This document shows, piece after piece, positions 1 to 32,370 of a stretch of 64,000 nucleotides of DNA. Source of the DNA: an uncultured Gammaproteobacteria bacterium (GTDB lineage Bacteria > Pseudomonadota > Gammaproteobacteria > Pseudomonadales > UBA5518); contig CAJADV010000085.1 in NCBI GenBank assembly GCA_903938575.1, forward strand, positions 9,491 to 73,490, read 5' to 3'. A program made the position numbers and the translations under genes. Each line of letters starts with the position of its first letter. Within the stretch, counting starts at the first letter, position 1. A model generated the notes under the pieces. The model was not told where the DNA came from. It did no database searches and was given only the letters and a program-made list of their open reading frames with translations.

Positions 1-900
1 GCTGGCGACGAGCTTGCGCAGCCGCAGTCCGCCTGTGATCCGCTTCAACCCCTCGCTCGATACGCGGGTGCGATCAAGGTTTAACTCCTGCAAGCCCGGA
101 AGGCTGCAGAGGTGATCCATGCCCTGGTCGCCCACGCCGCTCAACGAGACATCCAGCAACTGAAGTGATCCTAGAGCGTGGATATCACACAGCCCCGAGT
201 CCGTGATCGATGTGCCCGTCAGCCGAAGCTTGAGCAGGCCTCGAAGGCCCCTCAGGGCCTCGATGGCGCCATCGCCCACAAGGCTGCCGGACAGGTTAAG
301 TTCACGGAGGTTTTGGTGCGCGCGCAAGGCGCCAAGACCCGCATCGCTTACGGTGGTGACGCTGAGGTTCAGGTAGCCGAGGGATGCAAGCCCTGCGAGC
401 GCCTCCAGTTCCACGTCGTCCACCGGTGTGCGATAGAGATTCAGGTGTTCGATCTGCGTGAATCGCGCTATCCGCGCGCCGATGCCCGAGCCCGCCAGGC
501 CGCTGCGCGCAAGGCTGAGGCATTTGAGGCTCGCGAGCCCTGCCAGCGCCTCCAGAGCCTCGACGCTGATGTCCAGGCCCTCCAGAAGCAGGCTTTGCAC
601 CCCCTCGAGCCCTGCGATGCAGGTGATGCCACCGTCCCCGATGCGCGAGTCGCTAAGTTCCAGTTCGAGAATCGCATCCGGCGCGAGCATGTGCAGCAGG
701 CGCGCATCTGCATCGGATGCATAGCGGCGCACCGCCAGTCGCCGGGGCACAGCCTTGCATGCAGGCGTCCACGGTATCCAGCGCACTCCGTCGTGGAAAA
801 AGGCATCCCCCGGGAATCCTGCCTCCAGCAACTCCGCAAGGCTCGCCCCCCGCGGGGAACTGCGCGCGATAATCGTGTGCGGGGTGGCTTTGGCGGACAT
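1..900 (-). CDS. Leucine-rich repeat (RNI-like LRR) protein, C-terminal end cut by the window edge
   Basis: Not in the ORF track because it has no stop in the window. Hand translation from ATG 900-898 stays open for 300 codons to position 1: MSAKATPHTIIARSS...ELSDSRIGDGGITCIAGLEGVQSLLLEGLDISVEALEALAGLASLKCLSLARSGL...LNLSVTTVSDAGLGALRAHQNLRELNLSGSLVGDGAIEAL. About 24-aa LxxLxLxxTxIxDxGLxxL periodicity, at least 8 repeats. The ATG is 2 nt after the hydrolase stop. Confidence 0.75.
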   Translation of the reverse strand, partial: MSAKATPHTIIARSSPRGASLAELLEAGFPGDAFFHDGVRWIPWTPACKAVPRRLAVRRYASDADARLLHMLAPDAILELELSDSRIGDGGITCIAGLEGVQSLLLEGLDISVEALEALAGLASLKCLSLARSGLAGSGIGARIARFTQIEHLNLYRTPVDDVELEALAGLASLGYLNLSVTTVSDAGLGALRAHQNLRELNLSGSLVGDGAIEALRGLRGLLKLRLTGTSITDSGLCDIHALGSLQLLDVSLSGVGDQGMDHLCSLPGLQELNLDRTRVSSEGLKRITGGLRLRKLVAS

Positions 901-902
901 GC

Positions 903-1739
903 TCAGTCGCGCAGGAGAAATTCCGTCGCGGCGCGGTTGAAGTCCGCGGCGCGCTCCCACTGCACCCAGTGCCCGGTCTTCGGGTACATAAGCACCTCGC
1001 AGGACGGCAGCAGTTTCGCGAAGGTGAGGGGCGTGTCCAGGGTGAGGATCCTGTCTTCGAGTCCCCAGATCACCAGCGCTTTCTGGCGGATGGCCGGCAG
1101 GATCGGGCGCACATCCCCGAGCCGCTGTATCCCGTAGCCCGACATCGCGGAGAGGATCTCCGGATCAATGCTGGACTGGTAGCGCATCTCCAGCAAGTCC
1201 TCGGTGAGCATCGACGGGTCGCAGAGAAAGCTGTTGAAGAGTTTGCGCAGCTTGTCCTTGGTGGGCGGGCCGGGGTTGTAGTACGCGAAGAGCTCCGAGT
1301 GGGCGTCGGTCGGTGTGGGTTGCAGGATGCTGCCGAAGACGCCACCCGGGCCCATAAGTACGAGTCGCTCCACGCGCGCCGGATTGAAATGCGCCACAAA
1401 GCAGGACACCGCGCCGCCCATTGAATTGCCCACGAAGTGTGCGGACCCGACGCCGAGCACACCGAGCGCAGTATCGATCACGCGGGCGAAGGCGGGATAC
1501 AGTTCTTCTTCGAAGGTGGTCTTGAAGCTCCCACCGAATTGCGGCAGATCGAAGGCCAGCACCCGGAAATTTTGCGCGAGCGCTGCGATGTTGCGGCTGT
1601 AGTTGGCCCAGCCGGAGGCGCCGGGGCCGCCGCCGTGCAGGCAGACCACGGGAAAGCCTGAGCCGGCCTCGTGATAGTGCATGCTGCGGCCGGGGGCGAT
1701 CTCGACGCGGCGCGACGTGTTCTCGTAAGTGAATTCCAT
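903..1739 (-). CDS. Alpha/beta-fold hydrolase, meta-cleavage-product (C-C bond) hydrolase-like
   Basis: 278-aa ORF with HGGGPG oxyanion region, GNSMGG nucleophile elbow and a C-terminal GHW(V)QWE motif, as in the BphD/HsaD/TodF class. Lies downstream of the Rieske oxygenase and reductase. Confidence 0.85.
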   Translation of the reverse strand: MEFTYENTSRRVEIAPGRSMHYHEAGSGFPVVCLHGGGPGASGWANYSRNIAALAQNFRVLAFDLPQFGGSFKTTFEEELYPAFARVIDTALGVLGVGSAHFVGNSMGGAVSCFVAHFNPARVERLVLMGPGGVFGSILQPTPTDAHSELFAYYNPGPPTKDKLRKLFNSFLCDPSMLTEDLLEMRYQSSIDPEILSAMSGYGIQRLGDVRPILPAIRQKALVIWGLEDRILTLDTPLTFAKLLPSCEVLMYPKTGHWVQWERAADFNRAATEFLLRD

Positions 1740-1769
1740 CTGGGGCTCCGTAGGGCGTGAAAAGTGGTG

Positions 1770-2789
1770 TCAGGCGGTATCAGGGGCGGGGAGGTATTGC
1801 TCGGCCCTGATCCTCTCGGGCGGTATTCCCAGGGAGCTGCAGCGTTCTCGCGTTGCCTCGATCAGGCCGGGGGCGCCGCACACATAGACGATGCTGTCGG
1901 GCTTGAAGGCGGCGTCCTCCAGCAGCGCGAGGGGGTTCCCGACCGGACCATGCCACGCGGGCGAGGGGCGCGAGACCCCCACCCGGACATCGAGCCGCGC
2001 CATCCAGTCCTGCCGCAGGGAGAGCTCGTCGAGATGGAAAAGGCCCTCCTCGCGCGAGCAGGCGAAGGCGAGGATGGTGTCCGGCGTACGGCCGGGGCGT
2101 TCGCGCAATTGGTCGATCATCGGCAGGATTGGGCCCAGCCCGGTGCCACCGGCGATGAATACGTGCGGACCTTGCCAGCTGCCGAGCGTGAAGGCGCCGA
2201 AGGGGCCTTCCACGCAGCAGGCGTCACCCAACCCCGCGCGCTCCAGAAGGTATCTTCCCATCGAACCCTGCGGGTGGATCTTCACTACCAGCGACAGGCG
2301 CTCTGGTGAATCGGGCTCGGAGGAGATCGAGTAGGAGCGCCAGCTCCCGGTGCCGGGCACCTGGATGCGCAGGTATTGGCCCGGCACGGCGTCGAGCCGT
2401 TTCTCCGGTTGAATGCTGAGTTCCCATACGTCGGACGAGAGTTGCCGCAGGCCGGAGACCACCGCATCGCATCGTATGGCGGCCTCGCCCTCGGCAAGGC
2501 GTGAGCCGTAAGCGAAGCGTACGGCGACATCGGCCTGTGGCAGCAGCGAGCACGCGAGCCGCATGCCAGCGTCGATCTCGCTGCGCAACAGCGCGCTCGC
2601 GCGCCCCGGGACGTTGCCCGCCTCGCCTGAGACGAGGGTGCAGATGCAGGAGGCGCAACTGCCTGAGCGGCACTGGTGTGCGAGGTTCAGCCCCGCGGCG
2701 AGTGCGGCATCAAGCAGCGTTTGCCCTTGCGGTACATCGATCTCGCGCTGCATCCCGTCGTCGAAATGCAGCGCGGCCCGGAAGCCCAC
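1770..2789 (-). CDS. Oxygenase reductase component: N-terminal plant-type 2Fe-2S ferredoxin fused to an FNR-like FAD/NAD(P)H domain
   Basis: CRSGSCASCIC cluster motif (Cx4Cx2C), RSYSIS flavin motif and GGTGLGPILPMI nucleotide-binding motif. BenC-like domain order. Confidence 0.85.
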   Translation of the reverse strand: MGFRAALHFDDGMQREIDVPQGQTLLDAALAAGLNLAHQCRSGSCASCICTLVSGEAGNVPGRASALLRSEIDAGMRLACSLLPQADVAVRFAYGSRLAEGEAAIRCDAVVSGLRQLSSDVWELSIQPEKRLDAVPGQYLRIQVPGTGSWRSYSISSEPDSPERLSLVVKIHPQGSMGRYLLERAGLGDACCVEGPFGAFTLGSWQGPHVFIAGGTGLGPILPMIDQLRERPGRTPDTILAFACSREEGLFHLDELSLRQDWMARLDVRVGVSRPSPAWHGPVGNPLALLEDAAFKPDSIVYVCGAPGLIEATRERCSSLGIPPERIRAEQYLPAPDTA

Positions 2790-2798
2790 GGTGAGTTC

Positions 2799-4022
2799 TC
2801 AGCGCAGCCGCGGGCTCGGATGTGTCTGCGGTGTCTGTATGCCGCGGTTGTGGCGCGAGACCAGTTTGCGCCAGCCGGTGATAACGGCATCCATCCCGCA
2901 GAGTTGCTCGTCGTCCCAGCCGACGCCGCCGTCCACGCTGTAGAAGCGCTCCATCTGCTCGCGGGCAAAGAGATCGTCGTCGTTGAAGTCGTGCAACGCG
3001 ATCGGCAGCCAGAGGTGCTCGTACTCGTACTTGAACTTCTTCAGTTCCGCCTCGGTGTTGCACACGCCGAGGATCACTTCCCAGTACTCGTGGCGGTTGC
3101 CGTCGACCGGCACGTACCACTCGAGCTGGGTGAGCCCGCGCCGTGGCCAGTTCTCGACCATCAGTACGCCTGGCAGGTACATGGAGGTGCGAAGGCCGAG
3201 CACGGAGCCCGTGCCGAATGGGTGCAGATCCAGTTCCTCGTTGTGCATCACGAGGTCGTAATGGCCCGAGTGCCACTCGTTCATGATGCCCACCGGCCCC
3301 GCGCCGTCTTCGCCGTAGACCGTGATCGCCTCTGGCGAGGTGGGATTCAGGCCGAGTGGGAAGGCGAGGTTCTGCGAGAGTATCACCTGCGCGTCGCGGT
3401 GCATGATCTGGTGCCCTGGATCGAAACCATTCTCCACGGCGAGGCGCCAGTTCGAATTGCCCGTGCGGTGGATGCCGAGCACCACCACGTTCTCGTCCAT
3501 CGGGTGGGGCGAGCGGAATTCATAGTCGTCGGGCAGTCGGACCGGAAGGTCATCGGCAAGATCCGGCAGGGGCGCGTAGTTGTCGTCACCGACGAACACG
3601 AAGATGATTCCGGCGAGTTCACATATGGGATATGTCTGGAGTCGCGCGTTCCCGACCAGGGGGTCGTTCGGTGCGCCGATGATGGTCTTCAGCGCGCCGC
3701 TTGCGAGATCGTAGGTGAACCCGTGGTACCAGCAACTGATGGTGTCCTCCGAGAAACACTTGGGACGCACCGACATCGTCACGCCGCGGTGCAGGCACTG
3801 GTCACGCAGCGCGAAGACGCCGGCGGCTGTGCGTCGCAACAGGATCGGGACGCCCGCAATGGTGACGCCCTTGGTATCGCCCACTGCGAGTTCGTGGATG
3901 AAGAGCGCGGGATACCAGTAGTTCTTCATCCCCCACGAGGCCTTCAGATAGGGCTCGTACTGACGTCTGGCTGCATCGTGTCTCGCGTTGCTCGTTGCCA
4001 TGACTTCGTTCTCCACGGGCAA
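2799..4022 (-). CDS. Rieske (2Fe-2S) non-haem-iron oxygenase, alpha-subunit-only type
   Basis: CLHRG...CWYHGF Rieske motif and ENGFDPGHQIMH mononuclear-iron motif. No beta-subunit gene is adjacent. 9-nt gap to the reductase gene. Confidence 0.85.
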   Translation of the reverse strand: MPVENEVMATSNARHDAARRQYEPYLKASWGMKNYWYPALFIHELAVGDTKGVTIAGVPILLRRTAAGVFALRDQCLHRGVTMSVRPKCFSEDTISCWYHGFTYDLASGALKTIIGAPNDPLVGNARLQTYPICELAGIIFVFVGDDNYAPLPDLADDLPVRLPDDYEFRSPHPMDENVVVLGIHRTGNSNWRLAVENGFDPGHQIMHRDAQVILSQNLAFPLGLNPTSPEAITVYGEDGAGPVGIMNEWHSGHYDLVMHNEELDLHPFGTGSVLGLRTSMYLPGVLMVENWPRRGLTQLEWYVPVDGNRHEYWEVILGVCNTEAELKKFKYEYEHLWLPIALHDFNDDDLFAREQMERFYSVDGGVGWDDEQLCGMDAVITGWRKLVSRHNRGIQTPQTHPSPRLR

Positions 4023-4036
4023 GGTAGTAGAGAATT

Positions 4037-4053
4037 AAAATATACTTTATTTT
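4037..4053. promoter_or_regulatory. AT-rich inverted repeat AAAATA-N5-TATTTT upstream of the Rieske operon (candidate operator/promoter)
   Basis: Only strongly AT-rich stretch in the 70-nt gap between the Rieske start (4022) and the GntR stop (4093). The arms are exact reverse complements. Confidence 0.3.
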
Positions 4054-4092
4054 GTCGCTCCACAATCTCTCCCGGGTGGGCGGACACCTGGG

Positions 4093-4818
4093 TCAGCGCA
4101 GGTGCTGTGGCTTGCCTGCAGGGAGTTCGGGTGCCTTGCGGGTGTTCGTGATGTGCTCCCTCGCGAGTGTCGCCGCACGCCCGGCGTCACGCTGCCCGAT
4201 AGCCTCTAGCAGGGCCGCGTGTTCTTCCACCGATGTCGCGCGACGCGAGTCTGCGGTGACGGTGTAGAAGCGCACCCGCTTACCAAGTGGTTCGAGCATG
4301 GAGACAAGCACCGAATTGCCGGTGGCCAGCGCCATGAGGCGGTGGAAATCCTGATTCGAGCGCGCCAGTGCCGCTCCGTTTCGGACGCGCATTTCCCCCT
4401 GCGAGCGGACCACTATATCGCGCAGTTCCTGCATCTGCGCGGCGGTTCTGCGCTCGGCCGCGAGGGCTGCTGCTGCAGGCTCGAGCACCAGTCGCGTCTC
4501 GAAAAGATCCTGCATTTCCTCCTCCGACTTCGGCCGCACGAAATATCCCTGCCGGGGGCGTGTGACCACCCAGCCGTGCGCCTCTAGGGCGCGCAGTGCC
4601 TCCCGCACAGGGACCCTGCTTATGCCGTAGTGCTCCGCGAATACGTCCGCGTTCAGTCGTTCGCCAGCGCGGAGTTTGCCGTCGAGGATGGCTTCCTCGA
4701 TTGAGTCGACGAGGAGTGCGGCGAGCGTGGCCTTCGGCCCTTTTTCGCCCGAACTGGCGGGCAAGGCACCCAGATTGCCGGGGTCGGCTGAACGTGTCCG
4801 CGGTCTGGCCATTTTCAA
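4093..4818 (-). CDS. GntR-family transcriptional regulator (FadR/FCD-type C-terminal domain)
   Basis: wHTH segment FAEHYGISRVPVREALRALEAHGWVVTRPRQGYFV followed by a helical ligand domain. The exact start codon is uncertain. Confidence 0.85.
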   Translation of the reverse strand: MKMARPRTRSADPGNLGALPASSGEKGPKATLAALLVDSIEEAILDGKLRAGERLNADVFAEHYGISRVPVREALRALEAHGWVVTRPRQGYFVRPKSEEEMQDLFETRLVLEPAAAALAAERRTAAQMQELRDIVVRSQGEMRVRNGAALARSNQDFHRLMALATGNSVLVSMLEPLGKRVRFYTVTADSRRATSVEEHAALLEAIGQRDAGRAATLAREHITNTRKAPELPAGKPQHLR

Positions 4819-5854: not shown

Positions 5855-10357
<4,503 letters not shown>

Positions 10358-10386: not shown

Positions 10387-11328
10387 CTAGCGACTCGGGA
10401 AAACCATTTCAAATCGTTGGTCCGCCGCGTTCAGGCCAAGGCCCAGGTGGTTCGCGGTGCGGATGTTGATCGCCGTGTGCAACTGCTCTAGCGGCGCCAG
10501 CGTCGTATCACCCGCAGGCGGGTGCGCGGCGAGGCGCCCCAGCGCTTTGCCCATCGCCGTATTGTCGGGAAAGAGCGCGAACAGCGCGCCCTTGGGGACA
10601 TGCGCGATATTGCTGGAGAAAACCACGATGTTCCGGTCCCATGCGGTGCGCAGGATCATCTGCAGCACCGAGCTCTCGGCAAGGAAGGGCGAGCCTTGCG
10701 GCAGCCACAGCGCCTCGACGGCCGGATCCATCTGTGCAAGGCGTTCGCGATAGGCGTTGGCGCCATCGCGCAGCGTGTCGCGGCGCAGCGTTTCGAGTGT
10801 GATGCCCTGCCTCTTCGCGGCGCTCTGGCCGAGTTCCACCAGCCAGTCGTTGTTGTCCGCGCCGTGCACCAGGGTCACGCGGGTCACCTTGGGCGCGAGT
10901 TCATGCAGTGTGGCAAACAGGCGCGCCGGGGCGGGGACCATCGAGATGCCGCGCACGCCCTCGGGTAACTCGCCCGGGCGCGCCATTACGGCGCCGATCA
11001 CCCGGTCGAGGGGTGTTTTCAGCTCGCGCATCACGTCGAGGCCGTATTTGCCAAGCAGCAGCACGCGCTGTGCGTCGCGTCCGGCGAGGCGTGCGGAGAT
11101 ATCGTTTGCGTTTTCGGTGGTCGCCACCTCCTGCACGTCGGCGCGCTCGCCGAGTTCCTCCGTTATGCCTGCAACGATGGCGAGGAACGCCGCACGGTAG
11201 GGCTCGCGCACGTTGGGGTAGATCACGGCAACCGGCCCGGTCTCGGCGGCAGGCGCGGCCGCCTGCACGGCTCTGAACGGTATCAGGCACAGGGCGGATG
11301 CAAGGGCGATGATAGCCAGTCGTGTCAT
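10387..11328 (-). CDS. Periplasmic substrate-binding-like protein (COG2984 / ABC_sub_bind-like) with no cognate permease or ATPase
   Basis: Start chosen at the internal ATG 11328 giving a signal peptide, MTRLAIIALASALCLIPFRAVQAAAP. Two-lobe binding-protein pattern ending ...INIRTANHLGLGL. ATGA overlap with the upstream gene; 29 nt before the sensor gene. Confidence 0.6.
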   Translation of the reverse strand: MTRLAIIALASALCLIPFRAVQAAAPAAETGPVAVIYPNVREPYRAAFLAIVAGITEELGERADVQEVATTENANDISARLAGRDAQRVLLLGKYGLDVMRELKTPLDRVIGAVMARPGELPEGVRGISMVPAPARLFATLHELAPKVTRVTLVHGADNNDWLVELGQSAAKRQGITLETLRRDTLRDGANAYRERLAQMDPAVEALWLPQGSPFLAESSVLQMILRTAWDRNIVVFSSNIAHVPKGALFALFPDNTAMGKALGRLAAHPPAGDTTLAPLEQLHTAINIRTANHLGLGLNAADQRFEMVFPSR

Positions 11329-12149
11329 GGCGGCCACGCATCGGGCAGCGGGCGTGCCGGCGCTCCGCGGTATTGCACATCGGCGCAGGACAGAGGAAGG
11401 AAACCTCCGGCGGGCGCGGAGGCCGCTTCCGCGTAACAGGCGTGTACACCCGCATTCACGGCGAGCGCATACAGGCATTCGCCATCCGCGATCTGCATGT
11501 CGCCGTGATCGAGCAGGAATGCGGCCAGGTAGCCCAGCATGTTCAGGCCCGCATCGCCGTGAGGCGCCAGAAGCGCATCGATCTCCAGCGCGAGCCCGAG
11601 GTAGGTGCCATTCACGAAGCCGAGTTCCGCGGCCAGTCCCGCAAGTGCCGCGACGCGGTCATCGCCCTGGGCGATGGGGCGCGTAAAGCCCGGTGCGCGC
11701 ACGCGCCCGCCGGGGCGTGTCCGGCTTGCAATGAAGGCCTCGAGAGTCGCGCCGCCAAGACGCGCGGTTTGCGCCGAGACCAGGAAGTCGTGCGCAGGGC
11801 GCGTGCTGCCAGGGCCGTAGAGCGTGGATTCGCTGGCCATCACGCCTGCGCTGATGCCCACGGTGGGCGTGAGGCGTACGCTGCCAGCAAGGGCGCCGAT
11901 CTGATTGCACCAGATGCGCGGGTCGGGAAATGCGAGGCAGAGGAAACTCGCCTCTATCCAGCGTGCGAGGCGTGGATCGGGCAGCTTGCCGGTCACCTCG
12001 AGGTACAGCACCTCGAAGAAACTGCGTCGGCCCACCAGGTCCTCGAGCAGCGAGTGTCCGTGCACGCTGATGCCGCCGCCGATGCGCCAGCCACCTTTGC
12101 GGGTGCGGATGCGGCTGCGGCGCTGGTCCCAGAACGTGGTGTCGTTCAT
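11325..12149 (-). CDS. Citrate-synthase-fold / citryl-CoA-lyase-like protein B (catalytic residues apparently degenerate)
   Basis: Start at internal ATG 12149 (MNDTTFWDQ...). SFFEVLYLEVTGKLPDPRLARWIEASF matches the conserved CS/CCL helix. APGFTRPIAQGDDRV sits where the family has PGFGHxVYxxxDPR. ATGA overlaps at both ends. Confidence 0.6.
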   Translation of the reverse strand: MNDTTFWDQRRSRIRTRKGGWRIGGGISVHGHSLLEDLVGRRSFFEVLYLEVTGKLPDPRLARWIEASFLCLAFPDPRIWCNQIGALAGSVRLTPTVGISAGVMASESTLYGPGSTRPAHDFLVSAQTARLGGATLEAFIASRTRPGGRVRAPGFTRPIAQGDDRVAALAGLAAELGFVNGTYLGLALEIDALLAPHGDAGLNMLGYLAAFLLDHGDMQIADGECLYALAVNAGVHACYAEAASAPAGGFLPLSCADVQYRGAPARPLPDAWPP

Positions 12150-12964
12150 GCGCTGCCGCCCGTATCCGCGTCCACGTATTCGTAGCGTTCCTCGGGTACG
12201 AAGGGCATGGCGGTGATGCCGCGTCCGGCCGTCTCGAGCGCGTGCGCGAGTAACCCCGGCAAGCCCGCCAGTTGGTAGAGAAGGCCCGCTGCGCGCGGCG
12301 TGAAGCCCAACTCCAGCGCGGTCGCGGCGGCGAGGCCCGGTTGCAGCCAGCCGCAGCCAGTGCCTGCCAGCGCAGCCGCAAAGCGCGCGGACCAGGCGAG
12401 TGGGCCTTCGGGTCTTGCCAGCTCGCACAGCGGGGCCGCAAGGCTCAGACAGAAACTGTCGATGTTGCCGTGGAGCGTGCCGAAGCCTGGCGCGACGCGG
12501 CGGTCTCCCGGTGTCAGCGGCGGCTCCAGAGCCACGAGCTGCGCGGCTAGATCGATGGGCTCTGCACTGCAGCGTGCGGCGATGAACGCTGCGGCATGCT
12601 CGACCTCTGCGCTGCCCAGATGCTCGCCGCCCAGCAGCGCAATGCCGATCGCCGGCAGCGCCGCGTTGCGTGTTCCCGAGGCGGCGGCATTCATCACCGC
12701 GCGCGAAGCCGCGTGGCGCGGACCCGGATTGCAGAAACTCACCAGGAATCGTGACATCAGCCGGCGTTGCGCGGCGTCCGGCAGTTCGCCGCGAAGCAGC
12801 AGGAAGATGGTGTCGTCGAAAGACAGCCGGCGTGCCATCTCATCGAGCGCGTAGCCGTGACAGCGCGCCCCCGTGGCAAGCCAGGCGTTGTCCGGATCGG
12901 GCAGCTCCTCCCACACGCGCGTGCGCACGTGATCGGGAAAAGCGGTGTCTCGGCTTTGCTCCAT
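12146..12964 (-). CDS. Citrate-synthase-fold / citryl-CoA-lyase-like protein A
   Basis: LSFDDTIFLLLRGELPDAAQRRLMSRFLVSFCNPGPRHAASRAVMNAAASGTRNAALPAIGIALLGGEHLGSAE resembles the citryl-CoA lyase small-domain core. APGFGTLHGNIDSF sits in place of PGFGHRVY. Confidence 0.6.
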   Translation of the reverse strand: MEQSRDTAFPDHVRTRVWEELPDPDNAWLATGARCHGYALDEMARRLSFDDTIFLLLRGELPDAAQRRLMSRFLVSFCNPGPRHAASRAVMNAAASGTRNAALPAIGIALLGGEHLGSAEVEHAAAFIAARCSAEPIDLAAQLVALEPPLTPGDRRVAPGFGTLHGNIDSFCLSLAAPLCELARPEGPLAWSARFAAALAGTGCGWLQPGLAAATALELGFTPRAAGLLYQLAGLPGLLAHALETAGRGITAMPFVPEERYEYVDADTGGSA

Positions 12965-12978: not shown

Positions 12979-15153
12979 TCAGAACCGCAGTCGCGCCGTG
13001 ACGTGGAAACTGCGCTCTTCCAGCGGGAAATCATCGGGCATCAAGGAGCCCGCAGGCACCGCCTCGGTGGGGCTCGGCTCCCTCGCGTTCTCGTCGAGGA
13101 GATTCTTCACGCGCAAGGCGAGGTCGAGATGTCCGGCGATGCGACTGCGCTCGATGTTGAGGTTCACCAGCGTGTAGTCATCGAGCGGGTCGCGGGGATC
13201 GAGCGGCTCGCGGTTGCGGTCGGCCACCCAGCGCAGTTCGCCCGTGGCCGACCAGTTCTCCGCCAGACGCCAGTGCGCCCGCAGATACGCGGTGCGTTCC
13301 GGTGCCCGGGCGCCGTTCTCGCCCAAGCTCTTGTCTTCGGCATTCTGCACAGCCACGTTGGCCACTACGCGTAGCGATTCCAGTGGCTTCCACTCGGCCT
13401 CGAGCTCGAGGCCACGCCCTTTCTGCCTGCCCACGTTCTGTGCCACCTGTGCGCCGGAGCCGGTGGCGACGAAGTCGATCAGGTCGTCGATGTCGTACTG
13501 GAAAAGGTTCAATCCCAGGCGCCACTCGAAGCCCGGTCTCCAGTCGAGGGCTAGCTCGTAGGTGTTGGTGGTTTCAGGGTCAAGGTCCGGATTTCCGAGC
13601 GCCACGGGGTTGTTGATGATGAACAGTTCCGCGAAGGAGGGGGCGCGGAAGGCGCGGCCGTAGAGCAGTTTGGCGGTGAGATCGGTGTCGACGTCCCAGA
13701 CCAGCGCGAGCCGGGGGTTTACCGTGCTGCCGAAATCCGAGTAATCGTCGAAGCGCACACCGGTGGTCAGGTTCCAGTCGTTGGCGATTTGCCACTGGTC
13801 CTGCAGCGAGGCGTAGGCCACGTCGCGATCCTGGTTCTCGATGAAGGCGTTGGCTGTCCCGCTGACATCGGTGAGCGTGCCGTCCACCGTGCAGATGCCC
13901 GGGCCGCAGTTGCGGCTCGCGAGATCAAGCACGCCGGGGCCGAAATTCTTCGTCTCTTTCCCGGACTCCTTCTGCGAGCTGATTCCCGTCGCCACGCGCA
14001 GGCTGTGGTTTTCGAGCCCATCCCAGGTGAGTACGGCCTCGGCGCGGGCGTGCTCCTCGTAGAACTCGGGATTGCCACGGTAGCCATCGGTGAAACGGAA
14101 CAGACGGAACGGGGCGGCGATCCTGATGTTGCCGTCGTCGCCGATCGGCAGCACGGTGCCCGCAGGAAACAGCGTCTGGCGGGTCTTGATGTTGATATCC
14201 ATGTACGAGGCGCGCAGTTCGAGCGTCGTGTCGGGCGCGAGTGATTTCGTGCTCCAGCCGATATCGAAGAGATAGTTGTCGCCTTCCGCGTTACCCGAAG
14301 GATCCAGCGCCAGCGCGAGTCCGGGGCCGACGCCAACGTCGTCCTGACGCCAGTTCCATGCTCGCAGCTGGAAGTCGTGGTACTTGAGGTCCAGTCGCAC
14401 GTCCATCGATTCGGGGTTGCGTGTGGCGAGTGCTCCGGGCGCGAGCGAGGCGGGCTGCAGACCCAAGGGCGCCAGCACCGTGTCGAATACCGATTGCGCA
14501 TCGCTGCTGATGCGCCGCGAGCTGTCGCCATCGGTGCCAGACGCCTGGGCGGAGAAGCTCACATCCACCTCGCCCCAGCGCGTGCCGTGCAGGAGCCACC
14601 CTTCAGTGGTATCGAAGGAGCCGCCGCGCACGCCCGCTTCGGTGCCGCCGATCTGTGCCGAGCTCTTGGTGATCACGTTGATTACGCCCGCGAGCGCGTC
14701 GGCGCCGTAGATTGCGGAACCCGGGCCACGGATCACCTCCACGCGTGCGATGTCGCGCACGGGGAATGAGCGTCCGCCGCGATCGCCAAAATGCAGCTGC
14801 GTGATCGGCACGCCGTTCACCAGCATCAGTACCTGGGGGTTCTTGTCGGTGTAAATGCCGCGTACCGAGACCACGGGCGAGAGATAGGTGCTTGAGAGCG
14901 AGACATGCACGCCGGGTACGGTTTCGAGGATCTCCTCCAGCGTGGTAGCACCCAGCGCGGCGATGTCCTCGGCGGTTATGACAGAGGCCACGGCAGGCGC
15001 CTTGGCGATCAGCTGCTTTTGTCCCGTTGCGATGCTGAGGAACTCCTCATCTCCGAAGGACGCTGCAAGGTCCTCCTCGGACGACGCCGCGAGACAGTGC
15101 GAAGAGGCGGCCACGGCAGCCGCCAACAGTGCAGGGATGAATCGCTTGTTCAT
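12979..15153 (-). CDS. TonB-dependent outer-membrane receptor
   Basis: Start chosen at ATG 15153 (MNKRFIPALLAAAVAASSHCLAA signal peptide). Plug-domain motifs (VEVIRGPGSAIYGADALAGVINVITK), a long beta-barrel and a terminal ...RLRF. Confidence 0.9.
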   Translation of the reverse strand: MNKRFIPALLAAAVAASSHCLAASSEEDLAASFGDEEFLSIATGQKQLIAKAPAVASVITAEDIAALGATTLEEILETVPGVHVSLSSTYLSPVVSVRGIYTDKNPQVLMLVNGVPITQLHFGDRGGRSFPVRDIARVEVIRGPGSAIYGADALAGVINVITKSSAQIGGTEAGVRGGSFDTTEGWLLHGTRWGEVDVSFSAQASGTDGDSSRRISSDAQSVFDTVLAPLGLQPASLAPGALATRNPESMDVRLDLKYHDFQLRAWNWRQDDVGVGPGLALALDPSGNAEGDNYLFDIGWSTKSLAPDTTLELRASYMDINIKTRQTLFPAGTVLPIGDDGNIRIAAPFRLFRFTDGYRGNPEFYEEHARAEAVLTWDGLENHSLRVATGISSQKESGKETKNFGPGVLDLASRNCGPGICTVDGTLTDVSGTANAFIENQDRDVAYASLQDQWQIANDWNLTTGVRFDDYSDFGSTVNPRLALVWDVDTDLTAKLLYGRAFRAPSFAELFIINNPVALGNPDLDPETTNTYELALDWRPGFEWRLGLNLFQYDIDDLIDFVATGSGAQVAQNVGRQKGRGLELEAEWKPLESLRVVANVAVQNAEDKSLGENGARAPERTAYLRAHWRLAENWSATGELRWVADRNREPLDPRDPLDDYTLVNLNIERSRIAGHLDLALRVKNLLDENAREPSPTEAVPAGSLMPDDFPLEERSFHVTARLRF

Positions 15154-15160
15154 GCGGTAC

Positions 15161-17008
15161 TCACATGGCCTGCAGTGCCTGGATCCGCCGCCCGATCGGA
15201 GGTACCTCGCTGGCATCGATGCGGATATCCAGAAGGGTGGGGCTCTTCTGCATGCAGATTGCGGGGATGTTGAGGTTCAACAGGTCCTGTGGTGTCTGGA
15301 TAAGGTAGCCGCGGATTCCCATGGCCTCGGCCATGCGGCGGAAATCGACCTGCGGCAGCTCCGCGCCGATCCGCTCCCCACCGCCCAGGATCTGGCCGTG
15401 CGCGACCATGCCGAGCCTGGCGTCGTTCAGCACGATGAACACCACCGGCAGGCCGAGCTGTTGGGCAACGGTGATTTCCTGGCCACTCATCAACATGCTG
15501 CCGTCGCCGGTGATGCACACCACCGGGTCGCCCGGGCGCGCGAGCGCCGTGCCCACGGCATTGCCTATCGCCCAGCCCATGGGGGCAAACTCGAAGCCTG
15601 CCTGGAAGAGCCCGCCGCAGTTACTGCGGCGGTCGCGCTCGCCGCGCTCGCCGCGTTCGCGGTGGCGGCGATCGAGCAGGCGGCGGTCGAAGGGGTGCAG
15701 GTAGTGTGTGCTCCACGCAAAGCTGTTGCCGGCATCGGCGAGGTAGCGGGTGCTGGGCGGGAAGAGCTGCGTCAGCTTGGTCATCAGCCACTGCGGCTTG
15801 ACGGGGCTGGAGGCATCGAGGCACTTGGCGAAGTCCGTCACCTCGAAGGGCAGCAGTGATTGTCCGCTGCTCACGTGTTCATCAGTGTCCTGGCGCTCGA
15901 TGCTGCCAAGGTGGCGCCCGGCCTTGCCGAGCTCGATGATCACGCTCTCGAAGATGGTGTCGATGGATCCGCGCACGTGCAGGCGCGCCATCGGCGAGCG
16001 GGTGAGGTTGCCTTCGTTGGAGTCCACGTGGACCAGCTGGCTGTTCAGCAGGCCCTCGCTGTCCCAGTTATTGCTGCTCCACTCGCTCAACAGGTTGCCG
16101 ATGGTGATCATCAGATCGACCTCGGGGTCCCGCAGGGTGCGCTCGGCGCTGACATGGCCAGCAAAGGAGACCACACCGTCGTAGGTGGGGTGGAAGGGGC
16201 TGATCAGTCCCTTGCCGTCAGGCGTGGTGACGACGCGGGCACCGACCATCATGGCGGCACGCAGGATGAGCCCTGCCGCATCCTGGCAGCCGCCGCCCAG
16301 CACGAACACCGGTTTCTTGGCCGCAAGCAGCAGCTCGACCATGGTGGCCAGCGCGCTTTCGTCCTTCCACGCCGGGCGCGCGAGCAGTGAAGTGAGGTTG
16401 TAGGCAGGCCCCGAGGTCGACACGGCAGAGCGCAGCACGTCTAGCGGTACGCTGACATGCGCCGGCCCGCTTGCGTTGAAGGCGGTCATGATGGCGGAGG
16501 TCAGCTTGTGCTCGAGCTGATCGATGTGGCTCACCAGGGTGTTGTAGTGGGTGCAGTGCTGGAACATGCCCACGGTGTTCACCGCGGTGTCGCTGGATTC
16601 CTGGAAGGCCTTGCGACCGAAGTGGCTGAGCGAAGTCTGCGGGGTGATGACCAGCATGGGGATCTGGTTCTCGTAGGCTGAGGCCACGCCGGTGATCAGA
16701 TTGGTGGCTCCGGGGCCGGTGGTGCTGCAGCACACCCCCAGGCGACCGGTGTTGCGGGCATAGCCCTCGGCCATGAAGGCGGCGCCCGTCTCGTGGCGAG
16801 CCACCACGGCCCGCACCGAGCCGCGGCGCTGGCTGCGGGCACGCGCGTTGTACAGGGGCTCGATGGCCCCGCCCGGGATGCCAAAGACGTACTCCACCCC
16901 CAGCTGTTCCAGGTAGCCGAGAATCAGGTCCCCGCCCTCGTAAATCCGGGGCGAGGCTGAAGGCTCCGCGCTGACAGCGGGGTAAAGCGTGCGCACTTGA
17001 GCAACCAC
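15161..17008 (-). CDS. Thiamine-diphosphate-dependent enzyme of the acetolactate-synthase / 2-hydroxyacyl-CoA-lyase superfamily, with an Arg/Glu-rich insertion
   Basis: N-terminal LGVEYVFGIPGG...HETGAAFMAEGYAR...GPGATNL and C-terminal ITGDGSMLM...LNDARLGMV TPP motifs. Extra segment DRRLLDRRHRERGERGERDRRSNCGG lies just before the TPP-binding loop. The stop is 7 nt from the TonB-receptor ATG. Confidence 0.85.
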   Translation of the reverse strand: MVAQVRTLYPAVSAEPSASPRIYEGGDLILGYLEQLGVEYVFGIPGGAIEPLYNARARSQRRGSVRAVVARHETGAAFMAEGYARNTGRLGVCCSTTGPGATNLITGVASAYENQIPMLVITPQTSLSHFGRKAFQESSDTAVNTVGMFQHCTHYNTLVSHIDQLEHKLTSAIMTAFNASGPAHVSVPLDVLRSAVSTSGPAYNLTSLLARPAWKDESALATMVELLLAAKKPVFVLGGGCQDAAGLILRAAMMVGARVVTTPDGKGLISPFHPTYDGVVSFAGHVSAERTLRDPEVDLMITIGNLLSEWSSNNWDSEGLLNSQLVHVDSNEGNLTRSPMARLHVRGSIDTIFESVIIELGKAGRHLGSIERQDTDEHVSSGQSLLPFEVTDFAKCLDASSPVKPQWLMTKLTQLFPPSTRYLADAGNSFAWSTHYLHPFDRRLLDRRHRERGERGERDRRSNCGGLFQAGFEFAPMGWAIGNAVGTALARPGDPVVCITGDGSMLMSGQEITVAQQLGLPVVFIVLNDARLGMVAHGQILGGGERIGAELPQVDFRRMAEAMGIRGYLIQTPQDLLNLNIPAICMQKSPTLLDIRIDASEVPPIGRRIQALQAM

Positions 17009-22078: not shown

Positions 22079-22792
22079 ATGGAAAAGCGCGATCTGTTGG
22101 TGAAAGGCAAGGCAAAGTCGATGTACGCCACGGATGACCCGGGCTACGTGATCATGCACTTCCGCGATGACACCTCGGCCTTCGACGGCAAGAAAGTCGA
22201 GCAGCTCGAGCGCAAGGGTCGCGTCAACAATATCTTCAACGCCTTCATCATGGAGACGCTCGCCGCCGCGGGCATCCCGACCCACTTCGTGAAACGCATC
22301 GACGACCGCGATTCGCTGGTGCGGCGCATGAGCATGATTCCGGTGGAATGCGTGGTGCGGAACATCGCCGCCGGCAGCATCTGCCGCCGCCTTGGTGTGA
22401 AGGAAGGCATCGATCTCGAGCCGCCGACCTTCGAGCTGTTTTACAAGGACGACGCCCTCGGCGACCCGATGATCAACGAATACCACATCGCCGCTTTCAA
22501 GTGGGCGCGGCTGGAGGATGTGAACACAGCGCGGGAGCTCACTTTCAAGGTGAACGATGTCCTGAAAAAGCTGTTTCTGGACCACGGGATGCTGTTGGTA
22601 GACTACAAACTTGAGTTCGGGACCTGTGATGGCCAAGTGCTGCTCGGTGACGAGTTCACACCAGACGGTTGCCGACTCTGGGACGTCGAAACCCGCGAAA
22701 AGCTCGACAAGGACCGCTTCCGCCAGAGCCTCGGCAACGTGGTGGAGTCCTACGAAGTGGTGGGTCGCAGACTGGGCCTCAGCTTCGATTGA
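22079..22792 (+). CDS. purC: Phosphoribosylaminoimidazole-succinocarboxamide (SAICAR) synthase
   Basis: 237 aa. The opening [30 protein letters not shown] and LVDYKLEFG are typical of PurC. Confidence 0.95.
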
Positions 22793-22841: not shown

Positions 22842-22931
22842 GGAGAGGTGCGAGAGCGGTTGAATCGACTTGACTCGAAATCAAGCGTAGGTGAAAGCCT
22901 ACCGTGGGTTCGAATCCCACCCTCTCCACCA
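22842..22931 (+). tRNA. tRNA-Ser (anticodon CGA), class II with long variable arm, encoded CCA
   Basis: Hand-folded cloverleaf. Acceptor GGAGAGG/CCTCTCC. Anticodon stem CTTGA/TCAAG with loop CTCGAAA. Variable arm GTAGG-TGAAAG-CCTAC. T arm GTGGG-TTCGAAT-CCCAC. Confidence 0.9.
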
Positions 22932-24544: not shown

Positions 24545-25777
24545 GGAAACACTGATTTATTCAGCGGATCCGCGCGCTTCAGCATGGCGGTAGTCGATAA
24601 TAGAGCGACACGATACATGACGTGGTCCTCGATGAAGCAGATCAGCTTTTCTGACGCGGAGTTCGCTGCAAAGCGTAAGGTCACGCGGCGCGAGCGGGTG
24701 TTGTCGGAGCTCGATGCGGCGGTTCCGTGGTCTGCAGTCGCTGCGGTGATTGAACCGCACTATCCGAAGGGTATCGGCGCCGGTCGCCCGCCGATCGGCC
24801 TGGAGCGGATGCTGCGGATGTATGTCGCCCAGCAGGTTCTTGGCCTCTCTGACGAAGGCATCGAGGATGCGATTTACGACAGCCAGTCGGTTCGTGGTTT
24901 CGTCGGCATTGATCTCGCTGTCGAATCGGCTCCGGATGCGACGACGCTGTTGAAGTTCCGTCGTCTGCTCGAGGGCGCAAAGCTGACCAAGGAGCTTTTC
25001 AAGGCGATCAATAGGCGTCTCGCCGACAAGGGCTTGCTCCTGCGCAATGGCACGATCGTGGATGCCACGCTGATCGCGGCAGCGCCCTCCACCAAGAACA
25101 AAGACAAACAACGCGACCCGGAGATGCACCAGTCCAAGAAGGGCAACCAGTGGTTCTTCGGGATGAAGGCGCATATCGGCGTCGATGCCGAGTCGGGGCT
25201 GGTGCACAGCGTGGTCGGCACGGCCGGCAACGTGGCAGATGTCACGCAGGTTGACCAGCTGCTGCACGGTGAAGAGCAGTGCGTGTTCGCGGATGCCGGA
25301 TACACCGGTGCCGAGAAGCGTGAAGCGGTTGCGGACAAGGACCTTGGTTGGTACATCGCGCGCAAGCGAGGTGTGATCACGAAGGCGAAGCAGGGCGGCG
25401 CGTATCGCAAAGCACTGGAAGCTGTCGAGCGTGCGAAGGCCTCTGCCCGCGCGCTCGTCGAACATCCGTTCCATGTGATCAAGAACCTGTTCCGCCATCG
25501 CAAGGTGCGGTATCGCGGGATCGAGAAGAACACCGCCCAGCTCTACACGCTGTTTGGTCTGGCGAATCTGGTGCTCTCGCGTAGAAAGCTGTCGCCGCAT
25601 TGTGGGGTTACTGCGCCTGCAGCGTGAGGAATCGGGCGAAACAGCCCGGAAAACGGGCTGAAAACGAGGCGCGAAGTCATGGAATTGGCATACCGGTGCG
25701 GTAATCGCACGATTCCGACGACTTGGTCTCTGATCTTGCCTCGCGCTCGCGGAAATCATGAATAGTTCAGCGTCTCC
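24545..25777 (+). mobile_element. IS5-family insertion sequence (1233 bp) with imperfect terminal inverted repeats
   Basis: Left end GGAAACACTGATTTATTCA vs reverse complement of the right end GGAGACGCTGAACTATTCA (15/19 by hand; 23/33 when extended). Flanked by CTAA (24541-24544) and CTAG (25778-25781), resembling the IS5 YTAR 4-bp target. Confidence 0.8.
24632..25627 (+). CDS. IS5-family DDE transposase
   Basis: MKQISFSDAEFAAKRKVTRRERVL..., DATLIAAAPSTKN, FGMKAHIGVD, ADAGYTG and VEHPFHVIKNLF...RYRGIEKN are hallmark IS5-group motifs. An upstream ATG at 24584 is an alternative start. Confidence 0.9.
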   Translation: MKQISFSDAEFAAKRKVTRRERVLSELDAAVPWSAVAAVIEPHYPKGIGAGRPPIGLERMLRMYVAQQVLGLSDEGIEDAIYDSQSVRGFVGIDLAVESAPDATTLLKFRRLLEGAKLTKELFKAINRRLADKGLLLRNGTIVDATLIAAAPSTKNKDKQRDPEMHQSKKGNQWFFGMKAHIGVDAESGLVHSVVGTAGNVADVTQVDQLLHGEEQCVFADAGYTGAEKREAVADKDLGWYIARKRGVITKAKQGGAYRKALEAVERAKASARALVEHPFHVIKNLFRHRKVRYRGIEKNTAQLYTLFGLANLVLSRRKLSPHCGVTAPAA

Positions 25778-30526: not shown

Positions 30527-30790
30527 TGCACTCACCGGTGGCCCCGTCGACGGCGGACCGAGCGAGGCGGTATCGCTCTCGGCTTTCCCACGCACCTGCG
30601 CCAGGATCCGCTCGATCAGCACTGGCTCCTCGAACCTCGGCGCGGCACCAGTGCTGCCAGCCGGGCGATAAAGTCCAGTGAATCGAAAACGACATGCGTC
30701 CCGTCCCGGTACGGGATCTTCAGCAGGCACATGACCTTCCCCTGCGCAGTCACCGAGAGCCGCTTTTCGGCCACCGTCAGCTGCGCCTTG
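30527..30790 (-). pseudogene. IS91-family (Y2 HUH rolling-circle) transposase relic A, internally deleted and frame-broken
   Basis: Two frames give AEKRLSVTAQGKVMCLLKIPYRDGTHVVFDSLDFIARLAALVPRRG and then EEPVLIERILAQVRGKAESDTASLGPPSTGPPVSA. These match the IS91/ISCR motifs PYRDGTTHV.F.PLDFIARLAALVP and IEDP.VI.KIL.HL. The N-terminal catalytic part is absent. Confidence 0.65.
30528..30633. repeat. Direct repeat copy 1 (about 106 nt) shared with 35553-35658
   Basis: Gap-free hand alignment to 35553-35658 has roughly ten mismatches. The first 55 nt differ at one position. Confidence 0.8.
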
Positions 30791-31664: not shown

Positions 31665-31668
31665 AACT

Positions 31669-32370
<702 letters not shown>

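What the first reader, a model, noticed from the sequence alone, without database searches (positions are those of the whole stretch)
1..4022. Cytoplasmic leucine-rich-repeat protein as the last gene of a Rieske oxygenase catabolic operon
An unlisted ORF (1-900, minus strand, open to the window edge) encodes at least 8 RNI-like LRRs. It has no obvious signal peptide. It starts 2 nt after the stop of the meta-cleavage-type hydrolase.

Upstream in the same direction lie the Rieske oxygenase and its reductase, with gaps of 9 and 30 nt.

LRR proteins in bacteria are usually secreted effectors or surface proteins. One that is co-transcribed with an aromatic/steroid-type oxygenase set is unexpected. 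It could be a scaffold or regulator.
Basis: partly seen in the sequence, partly recalled or inferred. Interest (0 to 1): 0.6.

Follow-up and report, generated by a model that had tools for sequence, protein, structure and literature searches.

The report
LRR-only protein inside aromatic-amine catabolic operon
A freshwater gammaproteobacterium carries, directly after the hydrolase gene of an oxygenase operon, a conserved gene for a protein made only of leucine-rich repeats with no export signal; this pairing was not found in the literature searched, and it suggests a non-catalytic binding partner of the pathway.

Summary
Window 1-900 (-) is the 5' half of a real 618-codon gene. Its ATG lies 2 nt after the hydrolase stop. 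It has no signal-peptide-like N-terminus and nine LRRs inside the window.

Near-identical metagenome contigs supplied the rest of the gene. The protein is a short N-terminal cap plus 22-23 repeats of 24 residues, of the GALA-like/CC type, and contains no other domain.

It is not the last gene here. A 2-aminophenol meta-cleavage block follows on the same strand. It is the last gene in three related lineages.

The order GntR, OxoO-type Rieske oxygenase, (reductase), meta-cleavage-product (MCP) hydrolase, LRR recurs in four lineages. The LRR proteins of these lineages are only 44-73% identical. One Novosphingobium copy lacks the LRR gene and has an IS3 transposase in its place.

The gene is under purifying selection (dN/dS 0.18-0.32). 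It has no internal indels across all repeats. Its concave face is far better conserved than its convex face (57% vs 22%, p = 3e-9).

Best reading: a cytoplasmic binding or scaffold subunit tied to the oxygenase/hydrolase module. The partner and the function are untested. Orthologues are extremely rare: two clusters among 1.84 billion representatives.

The parts
1..900 (-). 5' 900 nt (codons 1-300) of a 618-codon LRR-only gene. Residues 1-18 are disordered, 20-76 form the N-terminal cap, and LRR 1-9 plus the start of LRR 10 follow. The remainder lies beyond the window edge (L001:11740-12696).
   Evidence: window fragment 100% identical to L001
901..902 (-). 2-nt spacer between the hydrolase TGA and the LRR ATG. 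There is no Shine-Dalgarno-like sequence, which suggests translational coupling. The junction is identical in L008 and L015.
903..1739 (-). Meta-cleavage-product (C-C bond) hydrolase, alpha/beta fold, HsaD/BphD-like, 278 aa.
   Evidence: HsaD/BphD structures at about 4e-52; below the NCBIfam equivalog cut-offs
1770..2789 (-). Fer2-FAD-NAD reductase (class IB, BenC/MmoC-like), 339 aa.
2799..4001 (-). Rieske oxygenase of the homotrimeric OxoO/CarAa type (PF00355 + PF11723), 400 aa from ATG 4001. An alternative TTG start lies at 4022.
   Evidence: 1z01 OxoO 3e-127; CarAa about 1e-82
4002..4092 (-). Intergenic region with an AT-rich stretch and a GGAG before the oxygenase ATG. It is the likely promoter/operator region. 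The consensus scan found no sigma-70 match.
   Evidence: read by eye; inference
4093..4812 (-). GntR/FCD-family transcriptional regulator, same strand, first gene of the conserved module.
   Evidence: also present in L015, L020, L027, L009
4989..5756 (+). Divergent short-chain dehydrogenase (SDR), syntenic in L015-L017. Its membership of the pathway is not established.

Best explanation
**What it is.** The ORF is the first half of a gene for a 618-residue, signal-peptide-less protein. The protein consists only of a roughly 58-residue cap and 22-23 GALA-like (CC-subfamily) leucine-rich repeats of 24 residues.

**Where it belongs.** It is a conserved accessory gene of a GntR-regulated module. 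The module is made of an OxoO-type Rieske monooxygenase, usually its reductase, and a meta-cleavage-product hydrolase.

**How it most likely works.**
- It is transcribed with the module and translated by coupling to the hydrolase.
- It stays in the cytoplasm.
- It uses its concave beta-sheet face to hold a conserved protein partner. The most likely partner is one of the module's own enzymes, either the hydrolase or the trimeric oxygenase.
- It would therefore act as a non-catalytic scaffold, stabiliser or inhibitor subunit.

**Shown.**
- The gene is real and under purifying selection.
- Its repeat architecture and concave face are conserved.
- Its position directly after the hydrolase is kept in four diverged lineages, whatever lies downstream.

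**Inferred.** Cytoplasmic location, co-transcription, and the identity of the partner.
For: **Full-length gene.** It was recovered from near-identical contigs (18 mismatches in 10.4 kb). Pfam finds only LRR families and no other domain.

**Synteny.** The gene sits directly after the hydrolase in:
- the window lineage;
- L008/L015/L010 (LRR 72-73% identical);
- L020 (44% identical);
- L027 (47% identical).

This holds although the reductase is missing from the operon in L020 and L027. It also holds although the downstream neighbour differs: an amn block here, convergent genes in L015 and L027.

**Phylogenetic pattern.** The LRR-bearing clades A and B bracket the LRR-less clade C on oxygenase and hydrolase identity. 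The association is therefore ancestral and was lost in C.

**Selection.**

| Comparison | LRR gene dN/dS | Hydrolase/oxygenase dN/dS |
|---|---|---|
| window lineage vs L008 | 0.18 | 0.08 |
| L020 vs L027 | 0.27 | 0.08-0.09 |
| window lineage vs L027 | 0.32 | not computed |

- There are no internal indels over 22 repeats, including the odd 25- and 21-residue repeats.
- Concave exposed positions are 57% identical and convex positions 22% (Fisher p = 3e-9).
- Position 5 differs among repeats but is 82% conserved between clades.

**Operon structure.** The stop-start spacing is 2 nt with no Shine-Dalgarno sequence. No promoter-like site was found anywhere in the scanned regions, and no terminator-like site at either end of the LRR gene; the one terminator-like match inside the LRR gene is no more than the shuffles give.

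**Location.** There is no hydrophobic N-terminus or transmembrane segment.

**Fold.** The nearest structures are intracellular LRR types: RipG4/GALA, the Roco LRR, ribonuclease inhibitor, FBXL2 and LegL1.
Against: - No direct evidence of any interaction exists. A complex prediction could not be run with the tools available.
- The Novosphingobium copy of the module (L009/L019) lacks the gene, and L027 carries an in-frame TAG. The enzymes can therefore presumably work without it.
- The gene evolves about five times faster than the enzymes at non-synonymous sites. Its GC3 is lower (0.75 vs 0.82-0.85) and its dS higher, which suggests different expression or a foreign origin.
- Conserved synteny among fairly close relatives can partly reflect inheritance alone.
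- The nearest sequence relatives elsewhere are secreted proteins or effectors.
Confidence: 0.45

Rival explanations
1. Passenger gene. The LRR protein has nothing to do with catabolism. It would be a eukaryote-like effector or adhesin exported by a non-classical route (type III, IV or VI secretion, or vesicles) and aimed at protists or algae. It would merely ride at the end of a well-expressed operon.
For: - The closest sequence and structure relatives include the type III effector RipG4/GALA and Legionella LegL1.
- GL-LRRs are common in amoeba symbionts and planctomycetes.
- The gene is absent from the Novosphingobium module.
- It evolves faster and has lower GC3 than its neighbours.
Against: - It has no F-box, NEL, BTB or other effector domain.
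- No secretion-system genes lie in the 64-kb window, which looks like housekeeping chromosome.
- Repeat number and concave face are strictly conserved, not diversifying.
- Its position immediately after the hydrolase is kept in four lineages with different flanks and gene orders.
- The family occurs nowhere else: only two representative clusters in 1.84 billion proteins share the cap.
Confidence: 0.22
2. Ligand-dependent regulator. The LRR solenoid would bind the pathway substrate or an intermediate, as the CC-LRR receptors TIR1 and COI1 bind small aromatic or acyl ligands. It would then modulate the GntR/FCD repressor or another signalling protein, and so act as a co-sensor of the operon.
For: - GntR and LRR are the two non-enzyme genes always present in the LRR-bearing modules.
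- The repeats are of CC/GL type, like those of F-box receptors.
- Distant homologues are fused to signalling modules: BlaR1-type M56 peptidase, sigma-70 and Ser/Thr kinase domains.
- The conserved concave residues are rich in Arg, Asp, Asn, Tyr, Trp and Phe.
Against: - FCD domains bind their own effectors, and the Novosphingobium module keeps GntR without the LRR gene.
- No small-molecule pocket or inserted loop can be judged from a model of only 300 residues.
- No precedent in bacteria was found in the papers searched.
Confidence: 0.13
3. Decaying or functionless gene, or an annotation artefact of a GC-rich genome.
For: - High-GC DNA gives long spurious ORFs. An antisense 319-codon ORF overlaps this one.
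- L027 has an in-frame stop.
- The gene is lost in clade C.
Against: - dN/dS is 0.18-0.32 across three comparisons.
- There are no indels in 600 aligned codons at 47% identity.
- Pfam LRR hits reach 76-94 bits on the full protein.
- AlphaFold2 pLDDT exceeds 90 over the repeats.
Confidence: 0.04
4. Sec- or Tat-exported periplasmic or surface LRR protein, like its nearest non-orthologous homologues.
For: P0003 and P0004 (32-37% identical) begin with typical signal peptides. Many homologues are annotated as internalin-like.
Against: - The N-terminus has no hydrophobic stretch in any of the four lineages and no lipobox.
- The RR motif sits in a predicted cap beta-strand followed by charged residues.
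- Clade B proteins start 17 residues later, directly at the conserved cap.
Confidence: 0.04

Closest known systems
GALA-like (GL) LRRs of the CC-LRR subfamily (Kajava et al. 2008, PMC2244805), e.g. LRR-only proteins of Gemmata and Parachlamydia
   Same: - 24-residue repeats with consensus LxxLxLsgTxVsDxGLxALagLxx.
- The 'Vtd' motif, and Thr in place of Asn/Cys at the ladder position.
- The whole protein can be LRR only.
- Sequence homologues at about 30% identity come from Planctomycetes, Verrucomicrobia and Acidobacteria.
   Different: - Those proteins mostly carry signal peptides or are fused to other domains, and are not reported in catabolic operons.
- This one has its own 58-residue cap (GFPGxAF..W.PW..RRLxVRRYA). 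Only two clusters in 1.84 billion representatives share that cap.
Ralstonia GALA/RipG type III effectors (structure 9j7j)
   Same: Best PDB sequence and fold match among bacterial proteins. Repeat length is 24 residues.
   Different: This protein has no F-box. Identity is about 24-27%. The organism is not a known pathogen, and no secretion-system genes lie in the 64-kb window. The gene context is catabolic.
Ribonuclease inhibitor and SDS22/PP1-type LRR enzyme binders
   Same: - Cytosolic LRR-only horseshoes.
- Their whole function is to clasp an enzyme on the concave face.
- Structural match with TM-score 0.6-0.74.
   Different: - They have different repeat classes (28/29-residue RI, 22-residue SDS22) and are eukaryotic.
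- No enzyme partner has been demonstrated here.
LRR domain of bacterial Roco proteins (Chlorobium tepidum, 5il7/6hlu)
   Same: A cytoplasmic bacterial LRR of similar geometry, with the highest identity among the top structural hits (26-29%).
   Different: Roco LRRs are N-terminal domains of Roc-COR GTPases. No GTPase or other domain is present here.
OxoOR (2-oxo-1,2-dihydroquinoline 8-monooxygenase) and carbazole car operons (context)
   Same: - The oxygenase has Rieske + PF11723 and matches OxoO at 3e-127.
- It is paired with a class IB reductase and followed by an MCP hydrolase, as CarC follows in car operons.
   Different: - To my knowledge (recalled, not tested here), none of the described oxo or car clusters contains an LRR gene.
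- The substrate here is unknown.
- In this genome the lower pathway is a 2-aminophenol (amn/cnb-type) block.

Membership tests
Leucine-rich repeat superfamily | Tandem 20-30-residue repeats containing LxxLxLxx(N/T/C)xL | tested here: met
   22-23 repeats in register. Pfam LRR_4 94 bits, LRR_8 91 bits and LRR_6 77 bits are all above their cut-offs.
Leucine-rich repeat superfamily | Curved solenoid with a parallel beta-sheet on the concave side | tested here: met
   The AlphaFold2 model of residues 1-300 shows a regular strand/helix alternation with pLDDT above 90 over the repeats. Foldseek hits are all LRR proteins.
CC-LRR subfamily, GALA-like (GL) type | 24-residue repeat with a V-t-D motif after the ladder residue and conserved apolar positions in the helix (Kajava 2008) | tested here: met
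   The consensus LxxLxLsgTxVsDxGLxALagLxx was compared with the published description. The comparison was by eye, not with the authors' profile.
GALA/RipG type III effectors | N-terminal F-box that recruits SKP1 | tested here: not met
   No F-box family appears in Pfam at E <= 0.001. The N-terminus is a cap specific to this family.
GALA/RipG type III effectors | Type III secretion signal and a T3SS in the genome | not testable with these tools
   Only 64 kb of the genome is available. It contains no secretion genes.
Internalin-type or other exported bacterial LRR proteins | N-terminal Sec signal peptide or lipobox, plus wall-anchoring or Ig-like domains | tested here: not met
   - Maximum 12-mer hydropathy is 0.92 in the first 70 residues, and there is no lipobox.
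- NCBIfam internalin models score 51-58 bits against cut-offs of 1050-1100.
- SignalP itself was not available.
Roco / NLR-like STAND proteins | LRR fused to a Roc-COR, NACHT or NB-ARC NTPase | tested here: not met
   Pfam finds LRR families only. PADLOC gives no hit.
Class IB OxoO/CarAa-type Rieske oxygenase system (operon context) | Rieske domain plus PF11723 catalytic domain, with a Fer2-FAD-NAD reductase | tested here: met
   PF00355 + PF11723 (231 bits). Match to 1z01 at 3e-127. The reductase has PF00111 + PF00970 + PF00175. The substrate was not determined.
2-aminophenol meta-cleavage (amn/cnb) pathway (block downstream of the LRR gene, outside the window) | Two-subunit LigB-type 2-aminophenol 1,6-dioxygenase, semialdehyde dehydrogenase, RidA-type deaminase, 4-oxalocrotonate decarboxylase | tested here: met
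   - Beta subunit 2e-167 and alpha subunit 1e-101 against 3vsg.
- TIGR03216 scores 758 bits, above its 693 cut-off.
- RidA and a DmpH-like decarboxylase are present.
- No hydratase or acetaldehyde dehydrogenase was seen in the 20 kb examined.

The most novel reading that the evidence does not exclude
The LRR protein is a dedicated non-catalytic subunit of a bacterial aromatic-catabolic enzyme system. It could be an RI-like clamp, scaffold or inhibitor of the MCP hydrolase or the oxygenase. Alternatively it could be a TIR1-like, ligand-dependent receptor feeding into the GntR switch. Either would be a first use of an LRR solenoid in bacterial catabolism.
Probability: 0.35. Interest if true: 0.7.

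Novelty: new variant of a known kind. Interest (0 to 1): 0.5.

Why it matters
Bacterial LRR proteins are studied almost only as surface adhesins, secreted effectors, or domains of large signalling ATPases. Here an LRR-only, apparently cytoplasmic protein is kept next to a meta-cleavage hydrolase in an oxygenase operon through substantial divergence, and its binding face is conserved.

If it does bind a pathway enzyme or a pathway ligand, it would add a new type of accessory component to Rieske oxygenase pathways. Possible roles are a stabiliser, a channelling scaffold, an inhibitor or a co-sensor. It would also give a tractable bacterial model for how LRR horseshoes recognise a defined partner.

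The finding also marks an uncharacterised OxoO-type upper pathway. In this genome that pathway is joined to 2-aminophenol ring cleavage, in uncultured lake bacteria.

Tried and rejected
The 300-aa window fragment was modelled instead. A complex prediction with the hydrolase could therefore not be made.
- The metagenome scan with the LRR protein returned only unrelated LRR genes at 29-37% identity.
- Two word-index homologue searches found only one orthologue fragment (P0001) and one chimeric fragment (P0002). Even the 618-aa protein itself was not returned.
- The P0003 context is a signal-peptide LRR gene next to other LRR genes and an M20 peptidase. It is not an orthologue.

**Searches with negative results.**
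- Plasmid tblastn gave only Ralstonia GALA genes at about 27% identity, so no known catabolic plasmid carries this gene.
- PADLOC gave no hit, so a defence-system reading is not supported.
- The promoter/terminator consensus scans were uninformative. They found no promoters, and terminator counts matched the shuffles.
- Rfam found only the tRNA.
- Literature searches for LRR plus Rieske or catabolic clusters, and for Rieske plus amn clusters, found no precedent. They cover open-access text only.

**Ideas considered and dropped.**
- GC3 cannot separate the LRR frame from the antisense ORF, because both score 0.75. Selection and homology evidence were used instead.
- A steroid-type (KshA/HsaD) pathway was rejected. 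The oxygenase is OxoO/CarAa-like, and the hydrolase scores below the HsaD cut-off.
- A Tat signal at RRLAVRR was rejected.

Full report
**1. The observation**

On the minus strand, window 900-1 is an open frame that starts at ATG 900-898 and runs off the window edge.
- The hydrolase gene (1739-903) ends with TGA at 905-903, so the two genes are 2 nt apart.
- The gaps upstream are 9 nt (Rieske to reductase) and 30 nt (reductase to hydrolase).
- The 300-residue fragment scores above the Pfam cut-offs for LRR_8, LRR_6 and LRR_4.
- It resolves into nine complete 24/25-residue repeats from residue 77.
- AlphaFold2 models it as a regular LRR solenoid, with mean pLDDT 87.9 and above 90 over the repeats.

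The N-terminus has no hydrophobic segment, no lipobox and no Tat-type h-region. The descriptive part of the finding is therefore correct.

**2. The rest of the gene and the operon**

An exact-sequence look-up of the hydrolase returned seven metagenome contigs of the same population. They have 9-19 mismatches to the window over up to 10.4 kb, and window position 1 corresponds to L001:11739.
- The LRR gene is 618 codons (L001:10840-12696), and the window part is 100% identical.
- Pfam finds only LRR families across its whole length. There is no F-box, NEL, BTB, kinase or NTPase domain, and PADLOC finds nothing.

The gene is not the last one. After a 61-nt spacer with an AGGA before a GTG start, the same strand carries:

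| Gene | Evidence |
|---|---|
| Semialdehyde dehydrogenase | TIGR03216, 758 bits, above cut-off |
| DmpH-like decarboxylase | NCBIfam |
| RidA-family protein | Pfam/NCBIfam |
| PF04199 cyclase-family protein | Pfam |
| 2-aminophenol 1,6-dioxygenase, beta subunit | 2e-167 to PDB 3vsg |
| 2-aminophenol 1,6-dioxygenase, alpha subunit | 1e-101 to PDB 3vsg |
| APC-family permease | Pfam/NCBIfam |

Upstream lies an OxoO-type module.
- The oxygenase has Rieske + PF11723 and matches 2-oxo-1,2-dihydroquinoline 8-monooxygenase at 3e-127, ahead of the carbazole CarAa structures.
- A class IB reductase and a BphD/HsaD-like C-C hydrolase follow it.
- A GntR/FCD regulator on the same strand precedes it.

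The set is thus of N-heteroaromatic / aromatic-amine type, not steroid type. The substrate is unknown.

**3. Anatomy of the protein**

- Residues 1-18 are disordered and are missing in clade B.
- Residues 20-76 form a cap made of a helix, a beta-hairpin and one degenerate repeat. It carries the conserved motif GFPGxAF..D...W.PW....P.RL.VRRYA.D.D.
- 22 repeats plus a partial 23rd then follow. The consensus is LxxLxLsgTxVsDxGLxALagLxx.

This matches the 24-residue GALA-like (GL) LRR, with its 'Vtd' motif, that Kajava et al. placed in the CC-LRR subfamily (PMC2244805). The best fold matches are RipG4/GALA, the Chlorobium Roco LRR, ribonuclease inhibitor, LegL1 and FBXL2. All of these are LRRs that work inside cells.

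**4. Is it a real, selected gene?**

| Comparison | LRR aa identity | LRR dN/dS | Hydrolase dN/dS | Other genes, dN/dS |
|---|---|---|---|---|
| window lineage vs L008 (Pseudomonadales MAG) | 72% | 0.18 | 0.08 | reductase 0.15 |
| L020 vs L027 | 70% | 0.27 | 0.09 | oxygenase 0.08 |
| window lineage vs L027 | 47% | 0.32 (dS saturated) | not computed | not computed |

- There is not one internal indel across all 22 repeats. This includes the atypical 25-residue repeat 3 and 21-residue repeat 19.
- The protein evolves about five times faster than the enzymes, but it is clearly constrained.
- Its GC3 (0.75) is lower than its neighbours' (0.82-0.85).

**5. Where the constraint lies**

| Repeat positions | Window lineage vs L008 | Window lineage vs L027 |
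|---|---|---|
| Solvent-exposed, concave strand (2, 3, 5, 7, 8) | 82% | 57% |
| Exposed helix/convex | 48% | 22% |

The clade A versus B difference gives Fisher p = 3e-9.

Position 5 is occupied by many different residues along the solenoid (N, D, R, F, Y, Q and others). It is nevertheless 82% conserved between clades. This is the signature of a specific, conserved binding surface. It is the opposite of the hypervariable concave faces seen in arms-race LRRs. One caveat applies: positions 7-8 may be partly structural.

**6. Conservation of context**

Sampling of oxygenase and hydrolase relatives gave three clades of the module.

| Clade | Loci | Gene order | What follows |
|---|---|---|---|
| A | window; L008/L015/L010 (oxygenase 96%, hydrolase 92% identical) | GntR-Rieske-reductase-hydrolase-LRR | amn block in the window lineage; a convergent gene in L015, where the LRR gene is last |
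| B | L020, L027 (oxygenase 85%, hydrolase 73% to A) | GntR-Rieske-hydrolase-LRR, no reductase in between | a convergent gene in L027, where the LRR gene is last |
| C | L009 Novosphingobium MAG, L019 | GntR-Rieske-reductase-hydrolase | an IS3-family transposase directly after the hydrolase; no LRR remnant |

On enzyme identity, clade C is sister to B (89% and 84.5%). The simplest history is therefore an ancestral hydrolase-LRR pair that was lost in C.

More distant modules (oxygenase about 60% identical; L023, L024) have M20 amidohydrolases and BphC-type dioxygenases but no LRR gene.

L027 carries a single in-frame TAG where L020 has Glu. The frame and the conservation continue to the C-terminus. 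Whether this is a recent pseudogene, a polymorphism or an assembly error is unresolved.

**7. Rarity**

- An exhaustive phmmer search used residues 1-124 against 1.84 billion representatives. It found the cap in only two clusters: P0001 (L015-type, clade A) and P0298 (clade B). All other hits align to the repeats only.
- Profile and single-sequence searches of 5.8 billion proteins gave otherwise only relatives at about 30% identity. These come from Acidobacteria, Verrucomicrobia, Planctomycetes and Gemmatimonadetes. Many have signal peptides or are fused to BlaR1-M56, sigma-70 or kinase domains.
- No plasmid in PLSDB carries an orthologue.
- The rest of the window is ordinary chromosome: purC, bamC, the glyoxylate shunt, TonB receptors and one tRNA-Ser. 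It contains no secretion system.

**8. Interpretation**

The following points together best fit a cytoplasmic, non-catalytic binding subunit functionally tied to the oxygenase/hydrolase module:
- coupling to the hydrolase that persists through rearrangements on both sides;
- the lack of any export signal;
- the fixed solenoid length;
- the conserved concave face.

The partner is most likely a co-encoded enzyme. The role could be scaffold, stabiliser or inhibitor (confidence 0.45).

| Rival | Confidence |
|---|---|
| Unrelated passenger or effector gene | 0.22 |
| TIR1-like, ligand-dependent co-regulator acting with GntR | 0.13 |
| Functionless gene | 0.04 |
| Sec/Tat-exported protein | 0.04 |

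The loss in clade C and the TAG in L027 show that the gene is dispensable in some settings.

No paper in the searchable library links an LRR protein to a Rieske or meta-cleavage operon. That search is limited to open-access text.

**9. Verdict**

The gene is not last in this genome, and the oxygenase set is not steroid-type.
- This is a new variant of a known kind: a GL/CC-type LRR protein in a new, conserved catabolic context.
- Interest is moderate (0.5). The association is robust and unusual, but its function is untested.

Noticed in passing
L001:12758-19940 (beyond the window edge, downstream of the LRR gene): A 2-aminophenol meta-cleavage block: amnC-like ALDH, a DmpH-like decarboxylase, a RidA-type deaminase, AmnB and AmnA. 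An uncharacterised PF04199 cyclase-family gene sits between the deaminase and amnB, and an APC permease lies at the end. No hydratase or acetaldehyde dehydrogenase was seen. The whole block is absent at this position in the sister lineage L015; sequence similarity to L015 ends about 10 nt after the LRR stop codon.
   Followed up: partly
L027:4196-4198: An in-frame TAG interrupts the clade B LRR gene at the codon that is Glu in L020. The downstream 281 codons stay in frame and conserved. It could be a recent pseudogene, a polymorphism or an assembly error.
   Followed up: partly
L019:3645-4837 and L009:10863-11744: An IS3-family transposase (HTH_Tnp_1 + rve) lies directly after the hydrolase in the Novosphingobium copy of the module, where the LRR gene would be. 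The module appears mobile or truncated there. GC is 60%, against 65-67% in the other clades.
   Followed up: partly
L020:1842-3935 and L027:1054-3195: In clade B the reductase gene is not between the oxygenase and the hydrolase, and it is not on these short contigs at all. The electron-transfer partner must be encoded elsewhere.
   Followed up: no
window 5855-10357 (-): A 1500-aa multidomain signalling protein (HAMP-HisKA-HATPase-REC-Hpt-REC-GGDEF-EAL) sits next to the catabolic cluster. It is syntenic in L015 and L016.
   Followed up: no
window 10387-12964 (-): Consecutive genes without any Pfam hit lie between the hybrid kinase and a TonB-dependent receptor (12979-15216). The contigs call three genes of 310-313, 274 and 272 aa, and the same order is seen in L001 and L016.
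   Followed up: no
window 35962-42477: A glyoxylate-shunt set: isocitrate lyase (-), a LysR regulator (+), malate synthase G (+) and AceK kinase/phosphatase (-).
   Followed up: no
window 24557-25759 (-), 31630-33432 (+), 30694-31524 (+): Long ORFs (400, 600 and 276 aa) with no Pfam family at E <= 1e-5. They were not checked for coding signal.
   Followed up: no
window 365-615: Weak DNA-level direct repeats (69-73% identity) spaced 72 and 147 nt apart inside the LRR gene. They reflect old, diverged 24-codon repeats rather than a recent expansion.
   Followed up: yes
window 22842-22931 (+): The single tRNA-Ser(CGA) gene lies just downstream of purC (22079-22792).
   Followed up: no
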